This document shows positions 4,264 through 53,628 of a stretch of DNA of 64,000 bases, piece by piece; position 1 is the first letter of the stretch, and each line of letters starts with the position of its first letter. Source of the stretch: Eledone cirrhosa (Eukaryota); the NCBI GenBank assembly GCA_964016885.1, contig OZ024741.1, forward strand, positions 348,564,001-348,628,000, read 5' to 3'. Below the pieces are notes generated by a model, which had not been told where the DNA came from, searched no databases, and worked only from the letters and a program-made list of their open reading frames with translations. Position numbers and translations under genes: made by a program.

Positions 4264-4537
4264 GGAGGTGAGTTTTATTGTAGAACAATAAAGCAATGCA
4301 GATATCGGATAAGAAGCACTCTACAGTTTGTAGGATTGGAGTATAAATAATATATAAGATCAAAAGATGGTTAAAAGAGTTCCATGTATTTTATTATGCG
4401 CATTTCAAAAACAAATATCATCATGCAATAATATTTGTGTTTTCATCAGATAAAATAGGAAGACATGATATGAAGGTTAAAAAACATTTGTGAATAGTGC
4501 AGTTTTAAATCAACATGTTGATTTAAAAGTGCTCTAT
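4260..4537 (-). mobile_element. Hammerhead-bearing non-autonomous element (family C), 3' end at (TA)n
   Basis: Closely similar to 11470-11712. It ends in a short fold-back TTTTAAATCAACATGTTGATTTAAAA centred near 4515. Confidence 0.85.
4387..4457 (-). ncRNA. Minimal type I hammerhead ribozyme motif
   Basis: Minus strand reads TATTTTAT-CTGATGA-AAACACAAATATTAT(tgcatg)ATGATATTTGTTTTT-GAAA-TGCGCA-T-A-ATAAAATA. This gives an 8-bp stem I, intact core, ~14-bp stem II, palindromic stem III (ATGCGCAT) and an AUA cleavage triplet. Confidence 0.75.
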
Positions 4538-5416: not shown

Positions 5417-6611
5417 TATATATTTATATATAAAATAAAATAATTAAGTCAAATATTCAAAATCTGGATTCGTTTATTAAAGGTGTATATATACATTTCG
5501 GTGACAGCCATCCTTGGCTGTGACCTCTTCAGGCAGTCCGAATTGGTGTGGTAGAGACGGGTACACATGTTGTTGAGGTGTTTAACTCCGTCAATACTCC
5601 GATATGCCCAGTTCCTGGTTAGGTTGTTATTTCTCTGAGGAACTGGAATCATATGAATTCGAATAAACGAATTTTGGCGTCAAATGACACTCTCTCCTCC
5701 CATTGGTCAGTTGTGAGAACATTCTTCAGTCAAAAGTATGAGGCAAGGCAATCTGGTGTGGTTGTTATTGTTAAGTACAACTGACCTCCTCCCTGATATT
5801 GGTGTTAGGGGGTCAGGGGATCAGTAGGCAGGTCAGCTTTAATTCGGCTGTTGCTATGTTTAGAAGAATGTGTGTGTGTGGGTTAGCATCCATCCTGCTA
5901 CCATTTCCCGTGGTGGTGGGGGGGGGTGCCAAACAGATGAAGAAATAAGTTAAAGTAAAATGGAGAAATAAAAGAATTCGAGGTAATAAAATGTAGAAAA
6001 TAAAAAGATGAAAAAGTAAAAAAATATATAAAAAATAATAAAATAATAAAAAGAATAAGATAATAAAAGAATAAAAGAATAAAAGAATATATTAAAATGC
6101 CTGTGTGTTATAACCAATCTCAAAGTTTGAAAGATTCGGAAAATATTGACTCAAGTAGAAAAGCTGTGTGTCAGAATCGGGAAGTGGTATCGTGGTGTGG
6201 TGCGTTTTAAGAGCAAATGAGACAAGGGTGGGGTGTAAAACACCAGAAACCGAGAGTTAAAAACCGGGAATTCAGAAGACTACAGTTCCTATTTCGGCAT
6301 AGAATACGTATGCGTGTATGTCAACTCACATCGCTCCATGAACACACGCACAAGCACAGGCCCAGGTGCATCGCCTATGCACACAAACACACACACACAC
6401 ACACATACACATATACACACACACACACACATCCACCCCCCCCCACACACACACATGTAAGTATCTGTGCATGTACAATCTTATATAACAGTATCTATAC
6501 ATGGACATGTGCATAAGTAGGTGTTGTCACAGGAGTCGATCGAGGCATGGGTAGGGGTGGTGATTGTGCAGGGGGTAGTTTACCGTGGGCTCGGTGTGTT
6601 GGGGCTGCTGT

Positions 6612-11373: not shown

Positions 11374-11469
<96 letters not shown>

Positions 11470-11595
11470 GTAGGAGGTGAGTTTTATTGTACTACAATAA
11501 AGCAATGCAGATATCGGATAAGAAGCACTCTACAGTTTGTAGGACTGGAGTATACATAATATATAAGAACAAAAGATGGTTAAAGGAGTTCCATG

Positions 11596-11666
11596 TATTT
11601 TATTATGCGCATTTCAAAAACAAACATCATCATGCAATAATATTTGTGTTTTCATCAGATAAAACA
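11596..11666 (-). ncRNA. Minimal type I hammerhead ribozyme motif
   Basis: TGTTTTAT-CTGATGA-stem II-GAAA-TGCGCA-T-A-ATAAAATA. Differences from the 4387 copy are A-U to G-U changes that keep pairing. Confidence 0.75.
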
Positions 11667-11775
11667 GGAGGACATGATATGAAGGCTAAAAAACACTTGT
11701 GGATAGTACAGTTGATATGTTGATTTAAAACTGCACTATGCACAAGTGTTTTTTAGCCTTCATATCATGTCCTCC

Positions 11776-11846
11776 TGTTTTATCTGATGAAAACAAAAAT
11801 ATTATTGCATGATGATGTTTGTTTTTGAAATGCGCATAATAAAATA
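11776..11846 (+). ncRNA. Minimal type I hammerhead ribozyme motif
   Basis: CTGATGA at 11784-11790, GAAA at 11827-11830, palindromic ATGCGCAT, predicted cleavage after 11838. Stem I is 11776-11783 / 11839-11846. Confidence 0.72.
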
Positions 11847-11882
11847 CATGGAACTCCTTTAACAATCTGTTGTTCTTATATA

Positions 11883-12079
11883 TTATATATATATATATAT
11901 ATATCTATATGTATAAGTGTATATATGTGTATGCGTATAAGTGTATGTATATATACATATATGTGTGTATATGTGTGTATATGTATGTATGTATGTATAT
12001 ATATATATATGTATGTGTATAATATATATATATGTATCTATATATGTATGTATATATGGTGTGTGTATATATGTATGTG

Positions 12080-20318: not shown

Positions 20319-20625
20319 AGTGTAATTTTCTACACAAAACGAAGGTTATAGAGAAAATTGAGGTTGGTAATATATATATATATATAACTATATATATATA
20401 TATATATATAAGTATTTATGTATGTATACGTACAAACATGTATGTATACAGACGTACAGTAGTATGTATATATATACATACATGCACACATATATATATG
20501 TACGTATCGGTTTACCGAACATTTATGATAATGCTCGGTTTGTTTGTAAACAAGCAAACAGACCGAATTACGCCGTACAGTGTTTAGGCAACCATGTCAC
20601 CTTTTTGTTCAACACTGACACAGGA

Positions 20626-20668
20626 ACGATGTACTAGTTTCAAGCTTATTAGCTATCTTCAGCATCGT
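20626..20668 (-). ncRNA. Minimal type I hammerhead ribozyme motif
   Basis: Minus strand: ACGATG-CTGAAGA-T-AGCT(AATA)AGCT-T-GAAA-CTAG-T-A-CATCGT. Confidence 0.78.
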
Positions 20669-21053
20669 ATACCTTTCTGCCAGATGGTTGAACGTCTGAA
20701 AGTATATACTTTCCTTATGCATATTAACGGCTGAGCAGCCTCATTTTGTTTGTTTACAAACAAACAAACCGAGCATTATCATATATATATGTGTGCATGT
20801 ATGTATATATATACATACTACTGTACGTCTGTATACATATATGTATGTACGTATACATACATACATACTTACATTTAAGTAAGTGCCGTACTAAGAGTGA
20901 GAAATGAAATTTTGTTTCATTCTATTCCGATTATCGTCTTCGGTGCTCCCGGCCGACTGAACTCATTCGATATGCAAGTTAAGCTGCTCAGCCGTTAATA
21001 TGCATAAGGAAAGTATATACTTTCGGACGTTCAACCATTTGGCAGGAAAGTAT

Positions 21054-21096
21054 ACGATGCTGACGATAGCTAATAAGCTTGAAACTAGTACATCGT
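21054..21096 (+). ncRNA. Minimal type I hammerhead ribozyme motif
   Basis: ACGATG-CTGACGA-T-AGCT(AATA)AGCT-T-GAAA-CTAG-T-A-CATCGT. It has a 6-bp stem I, an intact core, palindromic ACTAGT and predicted GUA cleavage after 21090. The two copies differ only at N7, the free core position. Confidence 0.8.
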
Positions 21097-22332
21097 TCCT
21101 GTGTCAGTGTTGAACAAAAAGGTGACATGGTTGCCTAAACACTGTACGGCGTAATTCGGGTTGTTTGTTTTTATTTACAAACAAACAAACCGAGCATTAT
21201 CATAAATGTTCGGTAAACCGATACGAGCATATATATATATGTGTGTGAATGTATGTATATATATACATACTACTGTACGTCTGTATACATATATGTATGT
21301 ACATATACATACATACTTACATTTAAGTAAGTGCCGTACTAAGAGTGAGAAATGAAATTTCGTTTCATTCTATTCCATTTATATATATATATATAAGTTA
21401 AAACAATGAAATAAAAAAATCAAGTCATTAGTTATAAAAAAATCAAGTCATCGTTTCTAGATGATGTTAATACATTGTAGCTATACTCAGTTATTGATCT
21501 ATGTAAGGTTAGTTACAAACTATCAGATAAAGCGAATATTTACTTACATGTATATCACCAGCTGTTTTCAAAAGCAATAATAATTTTATTCCGAATTAGT
21601 AGTATGTTAGTATCATGTCCTTATTTAGAAGTAGTTTGAAGAACTAACGAATCAAATGGTTTTTTTCATATGGCGTTAAGATGAAAAGTAATATACTTTG
21701 AAAGGAATGGTTGAAGGGTGTTAATGGAAGAATTGGCATAAAAATCTATTAGGAGGGAAGGGATTGACAAACTGATGGTTGAATGTATCTGGTATAGAGA
21801 ATTTAAAAGGAATGTCAAAATAAATGGTGATTAGTGTCGTATTGAGTTTTAAGGTGAATATAAATTAAGGTTATGGCTAGGAAAGATAGTATATTAAAAG
21901 ATGAAAATTATAATAAGATAATGAAATACAGTAATGCGATAATATACAACTTAACCAACACAATATAGTAATGTGTGGTAAATTGCATTTAGTATAATAT
22001 AGCATATGATATGCTCTAAAATACTATCAAGTATGTTTATGCATAAATAATCAAACTCAGATAAATACATGTTGGCATAGTTAAAACACATACATTTGAT
22101 AGATTACAAAGTGCATATATTCACACTTTATATAGAGAGAGGTACAGTTAAATTGATATCCAACCAAACATATACATACGCACAAATAGATGCAAATCTA
22201 AATACACAGTTACACGTATGCATATAATCATATACATACATATCCATACATATCTATATCCACACATACACATCTATACCCACATATATACATATATATA
22301 TATATACACACACACTCATACATACATACATA

Positions 22333-22765
22333 CAGATATAATGTAGATTCTGGTTAGGTTTGTGGTAATGTTGATAAGTATTCGTAGAGAGGTCTAAGGT
22401 AACGTCAAAGCGATTAGCTACTTTTGAAGGGTTTTCAAAAGTCATGCTAAGGCTGTAAGACTCCTTGAGGAATTTTCTAATTTGTGTTTTCTTCTTCACT
22501 ATATTGGAATTGCTAAGATTGTTAGATAACAATAGACAATCATCCCAATAAAGACCACCTTTGAGGTGGGGAAAAGTGTCATGAATGTTATAGAGGAGAA
22601 ATAGTCCAACAAGGTCTGTAACTTGAGCAGAATCCATGGATCCCATCGTAATATCGAATAAGTTGTTATAAGTGTTTCTTGTCCAGTATTCCTCTTGCAA
22701 TTTTAGTAAGGTTTTTCTAGCGTGAGTTATGATGTTGATTTCCTCAGTAGATAAATCCGATAAAT
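22333..22765 (-). pseudogene. PLE reverse transcriptase fragment
   Basis: FDITMGSMDSAQVTDLVGLF...GGLYWDD...FDVTLDLST...YHKPN...YI. It is paralogous to the RT at 24126-24590 but clearly diverged, and it is cut by a microsatellite. Confidence 0.9.
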
Positions 22766-23304
22766 ATCATACTTACATCCAGCAATTAATCTCTAATTTA
22801 TTGTCTCTTTTATCGGACCCTCTACACGTATCTATGTACATCTCAAATCTAGCTTCCCACCAACGAATCCTTATAAGAACACTTACTCAAAAACTACTAG
22901 TATGTACTTACACGATCTCATTTATTTATTTAACTCTTTATATTTTCTATTCTCTCATATTCTTACTTTTTTATAACCCTTTCTTTTATTCTACTTTTAC
23001 TTTTTACATCTGTAACTTCTTTACCTATTTACCATACATGTATTATTATTGATGTTATTGTTTAGCGAACTCTAGACCCACATGATCAACGAAACAATAG
23101 TCAGTACTTTAAATAAAGCCCTTATTGTACAGCCAACCATGTTAATCATTCTTTAACTATTCTTACTCCAAGTATAACCTGCATAAAAATTACCGCGAAC
23201 TCGCTGCATAACTATGGAAGCATCTTGTTGAGTGAAAAAAAGCCGTACGTTAAAACTATCCACGACGCAGAGCACTCACAACCTCTAACTGGATTACCTA
23301 TAAC

Positions 23305-23748
23305 GATAACTTTTATCCCATTTCATTCCATATGAAGCTATTGTATGTATTAATATGCATCGTATACACATTTGAGGTTTTGTCCGCTTTGACACTAATT
23401 CCATTGGTAGTTCGCAGCTTGTTTAGGAATGTATTCATGTCATTCTGGAGTTTATTATGCCATCGCTTTTTGAATTTGATATTCATAATCATCTTCAGTA
23501 AGTCCTGTTCAAAGGCATCCCTTTGAGGGTTGGTAGGTGGGTTCTTACACGATTTGAAGCCGTATGTTTCCTTGTTGTATTCCACGGTGCGACCGTTACG
23601 TCCTTTGTCGAAATGGAAAGTTTTCCATCTAACTCGGCGTATAAAGTCGTTTGTTCGCTGTATCATCCTGAGGGTATAATCCTTTCTCAAAAGTATAGGA
23701 ATGTTCTTTAGGGACATACCTATGTAATGCTTTACCATAGTAGTACCG
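23305..23748 (-). pseudogene. Inverted N-terminal segment of the PLE ORF
   Basis: MVKHYIGMSLKNIP...FIRRVRWKTFHF...YGFKS...FEQDL...VKADKTSNVY...NEM is a typical PLE N-terminus. The ATG is at 23738-23736. Confidence 0.85.
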
Positions 23749-25683
23749 TATGTTAAAAAAACTAATGAGGCGACACTGATAAACATCAACAACGAGGCAC
23801 ACGATATAGTCAAACACCTAGGAATAGACCACAGAACGGAGCCACTTAGGCCATGTACCCCCACATTTAATCTCAAGGACCACAAGGTAAATGTTAATTA
23901 TAACCCCGCAATTAGACTTATGTGCCCGTCCAAATCGGACATCGGGAAAATTAGTAAACATATATTAGACAGAGTGATAGCACAAATGAAGAATAAACTA
24001 GTGATTAAACTATGGGGTAACACTACCGAAACAATTAAGTGGTTTAACAATATAGCTAACAAAAAAGTATCTAAGTTTATACAATTTGACATTAACGACT
24101 ATTACTCCTCCATATCCCCAATACCTTGGATAAAGCCTTAGCATTCGCCAAAGCCAATTCTGACCTAACAGACGACGAGATAAAAATTATATTAGCTGCT
24201 AGGAAAACAATAATTAAATTTAAAAACGCCTATTGGGAACGTAAGGATAGATTAAATAACTTTGACATCACCATGGGGGCTAACGACTCGGCTCAAGTCA
24301 CAGATTTAGTAGGTTTTTACATAGCCCATAGGTTACAGAGTGAGTTTAGCGACCTTCACGGTGGAATCTACAGAGACGACGCCCTTCTCCTAGTTAAGAA
24401 CCTAAATAACCAGAGCATAGAAAGACTCCGTAAGAATATTAGAAAGACTCTCGGGAAACTAGGCCTTAGCATAAAGTATGAGTATGAGCACTAAAACAGT
24501 TAACTTTCTGGACGCAACGCTTAACCTAAATACGGGACTCATAAGACCTTTTCACAAGATTAATGAAAACTTAGCATACATCAACTGTAACTCAAACCAC
24601 CCACTATCCATAATTAAATCCATTCCATCAGCATATCCCTTAGGATCTCTCGCCTCTCGTCTAACCGACAAATCTTCGAGTAACATGCAGAATACTACAA
24701 TACCGCACAAGACAAGACAGGCCACTTAGATACAGTAGAATATATAGATGAGAGCTTCCGCGAAGCGCGCACGACACGCATAACACAAGCTCCAGAAACA
24801 CACGCACACACGCATTTACGCATAGAACTACAATTTATACGGTAAATAGAAATACAACATCGAAATCAAACAAGTCACGCAGTAGAAAATATATTTTGTA
24901 TAACCCCATATTTAACACCTCTATTAGTACTTACCTACCCTCTACCTTCTTTAGAATAATAAATAAGCACTTTCCAGATTCACATAGATACAGCAAAATC
25001 CTTAACACTAAATCTATTAGACTATATTACTCCACGGCACCAAATATAGAGGCACACATTAAGATGCTTAACGCTAAAAAGATACATGACAACACCAGAA
25101 CACAAATTTATAACAATAACAATACAATCACCATTGAAAACAACAGAATATCTAATACACAACCACCCACTAATAGGCAAACAAAACGTAACACACCTGT
25201 ACAGGCATCGCAGCCCTCCAATAATGCCAAAGTTGCCCATGACAAGAATTGTAACTGCCACCTACCTGAAACCTGTTCATTAAATAATGAATGTATGCAG
25301 TTTAACCTGGTTTACCAATGCACAGTAGAATCAGACAATCAGAAATGGTATTACATCGGAGCGACTGGGAATACATTTAAAGCCCGTTGGTATACACACC
25401 GTTACGCAATGAGACATTCCCAGCATCGTTATATAACTACCCTTGCAAACAAGACCTGGCAACTGAGGGAAAGTAACCATCAATACACCCTAAAGTGGAA
25501 AAAATTATCGAACGCGCACCCTATCGGAGTGGTATGAGAAGCTGTCGATTATGTCACCTTGAGCTGTTCCACATTTTGAGTTCGATGAATAAGTTACTCA
25601 ACAATAAAATCGAAAGATCAATTTATTGTAACCATAGACTCAAAGAAAAGTTTTCGCACTACAAGTGCAAATCGAACCCTTAA
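23749..25683 (+). pseudogene. PLE RT-GIY-YIG ORF with several frameshifts
   Basis: LKDHK...RLMCPSKSDIGKISK, FIQFDINDYYSSI, FDITMGANDSAQ, GIYRDD, NFLDATLNL, SNHP, CNC...C...C, LVYQC...YYIGATGNTFKARW and CRLCHLE occur across track ORFs 23920-25683. Confidence 0.93.
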
Positions 25684-52964: not shown

Positions 52965-52973
<9 letters not shown>

Positions 52974-53374
52974 TAAACAAATAATGAACAAACAATTCCT
53001 TATATTAAACAAAAAAAGTTCACTATTTAACGATCGTTTCTAGGGCATATATGTGTTATAATTGGTATGCATATTTAACAGATCTATGTACAAAATTATA
53101 CAAAATTATACAAATTATCAAGATTAAATATACATACCTAACTCATATATACGCCGTCTTCAGAAATAATTATTTCTGAAGACGGCGTATATATGAGTTA
53201 GGTATGTATATTTAATCTTGATAATTTGTATAATTTTGTATAATTTTGTACATAGATCTGTTAAATATGCATACCAATTATAACACATATATGCCCTAGA
53301 AACGATCGTTAAATAGTGAACTTTTTTTGTTTAATATAAGGAATTGTTTGTTCATTATTTGTTTAATATTTTAT
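52965..53374. repeat. 410-bp spacerless palindrome abutting (TA)n
   Basis: Axis between 53169 and 53170 (CAGAAATAA|TTATTTCTG). Arms of 205 bp with no mismatch seen by eye. Confidence 0.95.
53170..53316 (+). ncRNA. Type I hammerhead-like motif with a very long stem II (mirror copy on minus at 53023-53169)
   Basis: TTATTT-CTGAAGA-[GGCGTATAT...GGTATGTATATTTAA / TTAAATATGCATACC...ATATATGCC]-cta-GAAA-CGATCG-T-T-AAATAG. Stem III is palindromic (ACGATCGT). The base of stem II is non-canonical. Confidence 0.55.
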
Positions 53375-53505
53375 CTTGACTCTGTATACCGTTTATCTTT
53401 CACCGAAAGTGGATTTTCATTACATCTCTTCTTTCCATGATATCCGGAATACATTGAGTTCTTCATACGGATTGGACACTACCGTAAACTCTTGGTAGAT
53501 TTATC

Positions 53506-53628
<123 letters not shown>

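What the first reader, a model, noticed from the sequence alone, without database searches (positions are those of the whole stretch)
20410..21377. Complete pLTR-style architecture with two intact hammerheads and no ORF
Seen: an inverted copy, a partial direct copy and a full ~450 bp unit ending at a TA run. The hammerheads (20626-20668 minus, 21054-21096 plus) differ only at N7, the unconstrained core position. Both have a U-U pair at the base of stem II. The two direct copies end at the same nucleotide, and the first runs straight into the start of the full unit. Inference: reverse transcription of a more-than-unit-length or circular RNA, as proposed for non-LTR retrozymes. This is the best single experimental candidate.
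Basis: partly seen in the sequence, partly recalled or inferred. Interest (0 to 1): 0.82.

Follow-up and report, generated by a model that had tools for sequence, protein, structure and literature searches.

The report
Hammerhead retrozyme with Penelope-type insertion ends
This is one copy of a very abundant, protein-free 440-base jumping repeat that carries a predicted self-cutting RNA motif and has the lopsided back-to-back ends that Penelope-type retrotransposons leave, so those elements' enzymes likely move it, as already proposed for animal retrozymes.

Summary
The locus is one back-to-back insertion in a TA run: a 0.8-unit minus arm and a 1.5-unit plus arm of a ~442-bp ORF-free repeat, each with one type I hammerhead. 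A hammerhead-core pattern of this family matches 28,082 places in the 3.0-Gb genome, some in arrays.

Copies end at two fixed sites ~60 nt apart. Of 65 back-to-back pairs, 45 have one end of each kind, 5 B/B, 1 A/A, 14 unclassified. This is the Penelope-like (PLE) tail/no-tail signature, also seen in intact PLEs here. Copy ends do not pile up at the hammerhead cut site, so the template ran continuously across it; circle versus uncut tandem RNA is undecided. The helper PLE was not identified.

This copy is a poor bench candidate: its two hammerheads lie on opposite strands, and the N7 difference is private. The scan noted the same pattern before on other DNA of this genome. New member of a known kind.

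The parts
20371..20409 (.). left (TA)n run, likely target
   Evidence: sequence
20410..20746 (-). left arm, unit 48->~386, ending at fixed end B (no tail)
   Evidence: end B shared by 39 of 50 inverted arms
20626..20668 (-). type I hammerhead, N7=A (private change), predicted cut after 20632 on the minus strand
20745..20928 (+). 5'-truncated partial unit (unit 236-442, 27-nt deletion); overlaps the left arm by 2 nt
20929..21376 (+). full unit, 95.9% identical to the family consensus, no coding ORF
21054..21096 (+). type I hammerhead with U.U at the base of stem II and palindromic stem III; predicted cut after 21090; predicted to work as a dimer
21320..21382 (+). ~60-nt tail between fixed end B and fixed end A (A = 6 nt into the next unit)
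21383..21395 (.). right (TA)n run, likely target
   Evidence: sequence

Best explanation
The locus is a back-to-back insertion of a ~442-bp, ORF-free, hammerhead-bearing repeat (an animal non-LTR retrozyme), likely pasted into a TA run by the endonuclease and reverse transcriptase of a Penelope-like element acting in trans. Shown: the family, its two fixed ends, the one-A-one-B rule, the shared haplotype of the two arms, and copying that runs across the hammerhead cut site and past one unit. Inferred: the PLE protein nicks both strands at (TA)n; each 3' end primes cDNA at a different internal start site (A, with tail; B, 60 nt upstream) on the same RNA species; the two cDNAs stop at variable points and join head-to-head by microhomology. 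The template was not a cut linear monomer. I favour a ligated monomer circle made by dimeric hammerhead cutting of array transcripts over an uncut tandem transcript, about 55:45.
For: Copy number.

Two ends: 39 of 50 inverted arms end at unit 376-395. Of 65 back-to-back pairs, 45 are A/B, 5 B/B, 1 A/A and 14 have an unclassified end; among loci picked by an A end, 27 are A/B against 1 A/A. The same two ends occur at homologous places in a diverged 467-bp relative and in a 310-bp family. The same layout occurs in intact autonomous PLEs of this genome, with a ~60-nt tail in two Neptune-like families. Published PLE signature: PMC3846280, PMC8557442, PMC11167929.

Same template for both arms: 46 of 54 arm pairs differ at 10% or fewer of subfamily-diagnostic sites; mean mismatch 4.7% against 28% for shuffled pairs.

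Continuous template: 0 of 34 direct arms that reach the cut site end within 5 nt of it; 1 of 130 inner ends does; 1 of 235 spanning segments has a deletion there. 17 of 91 arms exceed one unit.

Hammerhead kept by selection: no subfamily-diagnostic change at the 12 core positions, and the four in the motif fall at N7, loop II and one stem I pair that stays paired. The active double hammerhead scores -20.2 kcal/mol against -17.0 for two monomers.
Against: No helper was identified. The unit has no significant DNA similarity to the three PLE families tested; the best tail match was reached by 49 of 2000 shuffles after post-hoc choice. Apparent retrozyme-PLE chimeras were rare and their arms did not match in age. 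Nothing here shows transcription, cutting or circles. The monomer is predicted to misfold, with the core paired to loop III. Arrays can grow at the DNA level after insertion (L209), so long uniform arrays do not prove rolling-circle copying. In the one PLE tested in vitro, cutting was dispensable and uncut RNA was the main template (PMC11167929). Only 1 of 9 Xenopus retrozyme dimers cut in vitro (10.64898/2026.07.22.740005). No target-site duplication can be read inside TA.
Confidence: 0.8

Rival explanations
1. Same PLE-driven mobilisation, but the template is an uncut linear tandem transcript; hammerhead cutting and circles are dispensable for insertion.
For: No pile-up of ends at the cut site fits this equally well. 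PAc uses unprocessed RNA (PMC11167929, parts 1-2 read). Most arms are shorter than two units: 90 of 91.
Against: The hammerhead is conserved with compensated changes across subfamilies and families. Old multimers such as L002 have units with no shared rare variants, which means identical units at insertion. Related retrozymes accumulate as circles in coral, mussel and axolotl (PMC7229834).
Confidence: 0.35
2. The copies are 5'-truncated ends (solo pLTRs) of an autonomous PLE that I did not find, not a family that spreads on its own.
For: The layout is the same as for truncated PLE ends in this window (52968-53510). Only three of many PLE families were compared.
Against: The 3' end joins the unit's own start head-to-tail, in arrays with up to 9 hammerheads at one locus. 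Of 117 solo 5' ends, none adjoins a PLE ORF in the same orientation. Several subfamilies each form ORF-free arrays.
Confidence: 0.08
3. A satellite spread by DNA-level processes (unequal crossing-over, fold-back repair), with the hammerhead as a passenger.
For: The A-B-A-B-A variant pattern in L209 is best read as a duplication after insertion. The unit contains microsatellite.
Against: Dispersed copies have fixed 3' ends, variable 5' ends and the one-A-one-B rule. The same signature is seen in autonomous retroelements.
Confidence: 0.05

Closest known systems
Animal non-LTR retrozymes (Cervera and de la Pena 2020, PMC7229834, parts 2-4 of 6 read; Li, Clavereau and Pollet 2026, 10.64898/2026.07.22.740005, parts 1-3 of 5 read)
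   Same: ORF-free AT-rich unit of a few hundred bp with one type I hammerhead; monomers, dimers and arrays; co-existing PLEs. The U.U at the base of helix II is described for axolotl HHR_Amex2.
   Different: Those papers infer PLE mobilisation from co-occurrence and pLTR similarity. Here the evidence is the insertion scar (two fixed ends, tail on one arm), and no pLTR similarity was found. Cutting and circles are shown there, not here.
EN+ Penelope-like elements, tail and inverted pLTR (Arkhipova et al. 2013, PMC3846280, passages; Craig et al. 2021, PMC8557442, passages and section 11; Frangieh et al. 2024, PMC11167929, parts 1-2 of 4)
   Same: Partial tandem, inverted 5'-truncated arm, tail on one end only, (TA)n targets, two internal RT start sites bounding the tail, hammerhead in the repeat.
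   Different: No ORF. The tail is ~60 nt rather than 30-40 nt, though it matches the two Neptune-like families here.
Non-autonomous Chlamys elements such as MRC1 (PMC8557442, passage)
   Same: ORF-free PLE passengers with pLTRs and head-to-tail multicopy insertions.
   Different: They generally resemble an autonomous family at the 3' end, and most Chlamys lack hammerheads. This family has a hammerhead and no matched partner.
Metazoan type I hammerheads with short palindromic helix III (Cervera and de la Pena 2014, PMC4209133, passages)
   Same: Helix I 6 bp, helix II 4 bp, short palindromic helix III; active as a dimer.
   Different: Activity untested here; loop 1-loop 2 contacts not assessed.

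Membership tests
animal non-LTR retrozyme | type I hammerhead in each unit | tested here: met
animal non-LTR retrozyme | short unit (about 150-450 bp) in tandem copies | tested here: met
   442-bp consensus; arrays in the genome. This locus itself has 1.5 units in one direction, below Li et al.'s two-hammerhead rule for an active copy.
animal non-LTR retrozyme | no protein encoded | tested here: met
animal non-LTR retrozyme | no LTR, PBS or PPT | not tested
   no search for a primer-binding site was run; the end-to-start junction argues against LTRs
animal non-LTR retrozyme | self-cleavage of the transcript | not testable with these tools
   folding only
animal non-LTR retrozyme | expressed as linear and circular monomers | not testable with these tools
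   needs northern blot or RNase R RT-PCR
animal non-LTR retrozyme | autonomous PLEs in the same genome | tested here: met
   long intact frames in three families
non-autonomous PLE | partial tandem with variable 5' truncation and fixed 3' end | tested here: met
non-autonomous PLE | inverted arm, tail on only one arm | tested here: met
   45 A/B of the 51 pairs with both ends classified, 65 pairs in all
non-autonomous PLE | microsatellite target | tested here: met
   TA at both outer ends; the loci were selected for TA, those were not
non-autonomous PLE | sequence shared with the pLTR or 3' end of an autonomous family | tested here: inconclusive
   none with three families; many other PLE families not compared
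non-autonomous PLE | target-site duplication | tested here: inconclusive
   cannot be read within TA runs

The most novel reading that the evidence does not exclude
The retrozyme RNA is a hammerhead-made circle that carries its own pair of PLE start sites, evolved without pLTR homology. One PLE protein dimer primes both strands of a TA break on that circle, one at site A and one at site B, and rolls round it. The thousands of A/B insertions would then be a genome-scale record of the PLE integration reaction, and the 440-nt circle a minimal trans substrate for it.
Probability: 0.3. Interest if true: 0.7.

Novelty: new member of a known kind. Interest (0 to 1): 0.42.

Why it matters
Which enzyme moves animal retrozymes, and whether a circle is the template, are open questions in the papers read. 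This family adds structural evidence that PLE enzymes do it: the tail/no-tail ends recur in three ORF-free families and match intact PLEs in the same genome. It also offers a short, high-copy substrate with two mapped start sites and three candidate helper proteins, so the question can be tested in vitro. The class of element and the PLE link are already in print, and the scan has noted the pattern at other loci, which caps the surprise.

Tried and rejected
Library scans: Rfam at gathering score gave 0 hits in the window. Pfam gave 0 families for three PLE protein pieces, so the labels Hydra-like and Neptune-like rest on motifs compared with the text of PMC8557442; no tree was built.

Expression: no RNA holder listed. 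The runs laid were two RAD-seq DNA runs and two of unknown kind; they show subfamily variants, the end-to-start junction and opposite-strand joints, and say nothing on RNA.

Partner by sequence: none found.

Partner by chimeric insertions:
- L301/L159 and L309 join a retrozyme arm head-to-head to a truncated Neptune-like family 2 copy without TA; L018 and L211 adjoin Hydra-like pieces.
- Of 89 family-2 loci, 11 ran off the edge. Of the 78 scored, 45 were self-inverted, 14 TA, 17 other, 1 retrozyme and 1 family 1. Of 35 family-1 loci, 31 were scored and 0 were retrozyme.
- Arm divergences differ: 3.6% vs 1.1% and 1.1% vs 0.2% (retrozyme subfamilies are undersampled). L018 looks like a young insertion that replaced part of an older, frameshifted element.
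- Rejected as evidence for a partner.

Dimer circle: L209's alternating pattern was first read this way; the variant phase fits a later duplication better.

Hairpin at the start sites: no structure common to all five families was evident in single-sequence folds.

Covariation count (10 of 13 pairs with double changes, 0 of 500 shuffles) used 8 hand-picked sequences, several found with a descriptor that demanded pairing, so it is partly circular.

Lower mutation load in the core (1.2% vs 2.05%) shrinks to 0.8% vs 1.0% for rare variants, and copies are not independent.

Full report
1. Observation. Each has a 6-bp stem I, the CUGANGA and GAAA core, a 4-bp stem II closed by U.U, a palindromic stem III and a GUA cut triplet. 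Against a consensus of 58 full units (442 bp), the locus is a left arm on the minus strand (20746 to ~20410, unit 48 to ~386) and a right arm on the plus strand (20745-21382: unit 236-442 with a 27-nt deletion, a full unit, then 6 nt of the next unit). The arms overlap by 2 nt and there is TA outside both ends. There is no coding ORF and no Rfam hit at gathering score. N7 is C in 56 of 58 units and A in none, so the difference is a private mutation.

2. The family. The own genome (3.0 Gb) gave 3,658 first-look candidates, of which 40 were scored. Exact patterns gave 1,146 tailed ends followed by TA, 408 tail-less ends followed by TA and 28,082 hammerhead cores; the reversed controls gave 0 each. 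Only the first 100 places were seen. Full units average 97.8% identity to consensus and this copy 95.9% (units partly selected for likeness to this copy). Several subfamilies exist. A 467-bp relative aligns along its whole length, and a 310-bp family (9,375 pattern matches) shares only the hammerhead.

3. Ends. I took the first 90 of the 1,146 tailed ends, all on contig C1, giving 91 ends. Of these, 50 have an adjacent inverted arm, 9 a direct piece and 32 none. In 39 of the 50 inverted arms the outer end is at unit 376-395; 4 of the 50 are short and may be microsatellite matches. There are thus two fixed ends, A (unit 442+6) and B (~386), about 60 nt apart. Across the loci examined, after dropping 5 duplicates, 65 back-to-back pairs split 45 A/B, 5 B/B, 1 A/A and 14 with an unclassified end. 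Loci picked by an A end gave 27 A/B against 1 A/A; loci picked by a B end gave 7 A/B against 3 B/B. The 467-bp and 310-bp families show the same two-end layout, with tails of about 70 and 35 nt. So do two intact Neptune-like PLE families, with ~60-nt tails, and ends of a Hydra-like family. In print, the optional tail on one of two inverted pLTRs is a PLE hallmark (PMC3846280 and PMC8557442, passages), and it lies between two internal RT start sites in vitro (PMC11167929, parts 1-2).

4. Template. The two arms of an insertion share a haplotype: 46 of 54 pairs with at least 8 shared diagnostic sites differ at 10% or fewer, with mean mismatch 4.7% against 28% in 2,000 shuffles. Ends do not pile up at the cut site: 0 of 34 direct arms that reach it (89 arms after dropping 2 at locus edges) and 1 of 130 inner ends; 1 of 235 spanning segments has a deletion there. 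About a dozen arms were stopped early by expanded internal TA, so the number crossing the site is undercounted. 17 of 91 arms exceed one unit. A cut linear monomer is therefore not the usual template. A ligated circle and an uncut tandem RNA both fit. Old multimers whose units share no rare variants (L002) were uniform at insertion, but L209 shows that arrays also grow afterwards.

5. Ribozyme. The monomer is predicted to pair its core with loop III (-8.5 kcal/mol, z -1.5). The double hammerhead through the palindrome scores -20.2, against -17.0 for two monomers and -20.4 for the best cofold. This matches the dimer-dependent metazoan type (PMC4209133, passages). Of 56 subfamily-diagnostic sites none is in the 12 core positions (about 2 expected, so weak alone), and the four in the motif are tolerated ones. 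Across four families 10 of 13 pairs show double changes (hand-picked set). The whole unit folds more stably than all 100 shuffles (z -6.6). Activity is untested. This locus has one hammerhead per strand, so it cannot release a monomer by double cutting.

6. Helper. The genome holds young PLE families with long open frames: Hydra-like (813 aa) and two Neptune-like, named by motifs only. None shares significant DNA similarity with the unit. Head-to-head junctions of a retrozyme arm with a PLE occur at four independent loci, but at 1 of 78 scored family-2 loci, 0 of 31 family-1 loci and 0 of 20 Hydra-like loci, and the arm ages do not match. The helper stays unknown. The equal tail length mildly favours a Neptune-like family.

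7. Comparison. It works like an EN+ PLE insertion without an ORF. It meets the sequence criteria of animal non-LTR retrozymes (PMC7229834; bioRxiv 10.64898/2026.07.22.740005); cutting and circles could not be tested. Both papers propose PLE mobilisation. I did not see the tail/no-tail scar described for retrozymes in the parts read, and searches listed no paper devoted to it (the 2026 preprint has 0 occurrences of 'tail'). Its supplements are closed and I opened no other supplements, so such data may exist there. Earlier notes of this scan describe the same pattern at other loci of this genome; my end mapping came before that look-up.

8. Verdict. A real feature and a new member of a known kind, with good structural evidence for PLE-driven insertion from a continuous template. 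Interest 0.42.

Noticed in passing
window 52968-53510: Back-to-back ends of the young Hydra-like PLE in TA, with a type I hammerhead whose stem II region is 116 nt long (53163 -, 53176 +) and a ~137-nt tail on one arm.
   Followed up: partly
window 11466-11885 and 4449: Another hammerhead family: back-to-back pair (11658 -, 11784 +) with a tail on one arm in TA, and a third copy at 4449 (-).
   Followed up: partly
window 22335-25665: Broken Hydra-like PLE ORF pieces back-to-back (minus 22335-23738, plus 23755-25665), starting 1 kb from the finding; no DNA similarity to the unit.
   Followed up: partly
window near 5532 (-): Hammerhead-like core of yet another family; relatives in L043, L100, L148.
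   Followed up: no
L221-L250; G000:C1:36482101-36490614: 310-bp hammerhead family, 9,375 pattern matches, in V-shaped arrays of more than 25 units with near-identical copies; a good bench candidate.
   Followed up: partly
L278, L281-L300: 467-bp diverged homologue of the unit with the same two ends and a compensated hammerhead with G-C instead of U.U at the base of stem II.
   Followed up: yes
L171-L172 (G000:C2:170423000-170441900): Hydra-like PLE with a 6,060-bp unit (813-aa ORF plus ~3.5 kb of microsatellite-rich non-coding DNA) in near-identical tandem copies; the published clade is mostly under 3 kb.
   Followed up: partly
L202:2815-6600 (-): Neptune-like ORF with an Asn-rich N-terminal stretch; Asn-rich inserts are reported for rotifer Penelope ORFs (PMC3846280).
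   Followed up: no
L209:843-2773: Array with alternating unit variants, best read as duplication of a two-unit block after insertion.
   Followed up: yes
L309:947-3100; L301:916-3183; L363: Head-to-head junctions without TA between different element families (retrozyme with Neptune-like 2; Neptune-like 1 with 2); co-insertion or later insertion with deletion is undecided.
   Followed up: yes
G000:C1:132947047-132947569: 46-bp-period tandem repeat containing the Neptune-like tail-end motif, 12 copies.
   Followed up: no
window 21327-21332: GTAAGT inside the tail resembles a 5' splice donor; PLE 5' UTRs can hold introns.
   Followed up: no
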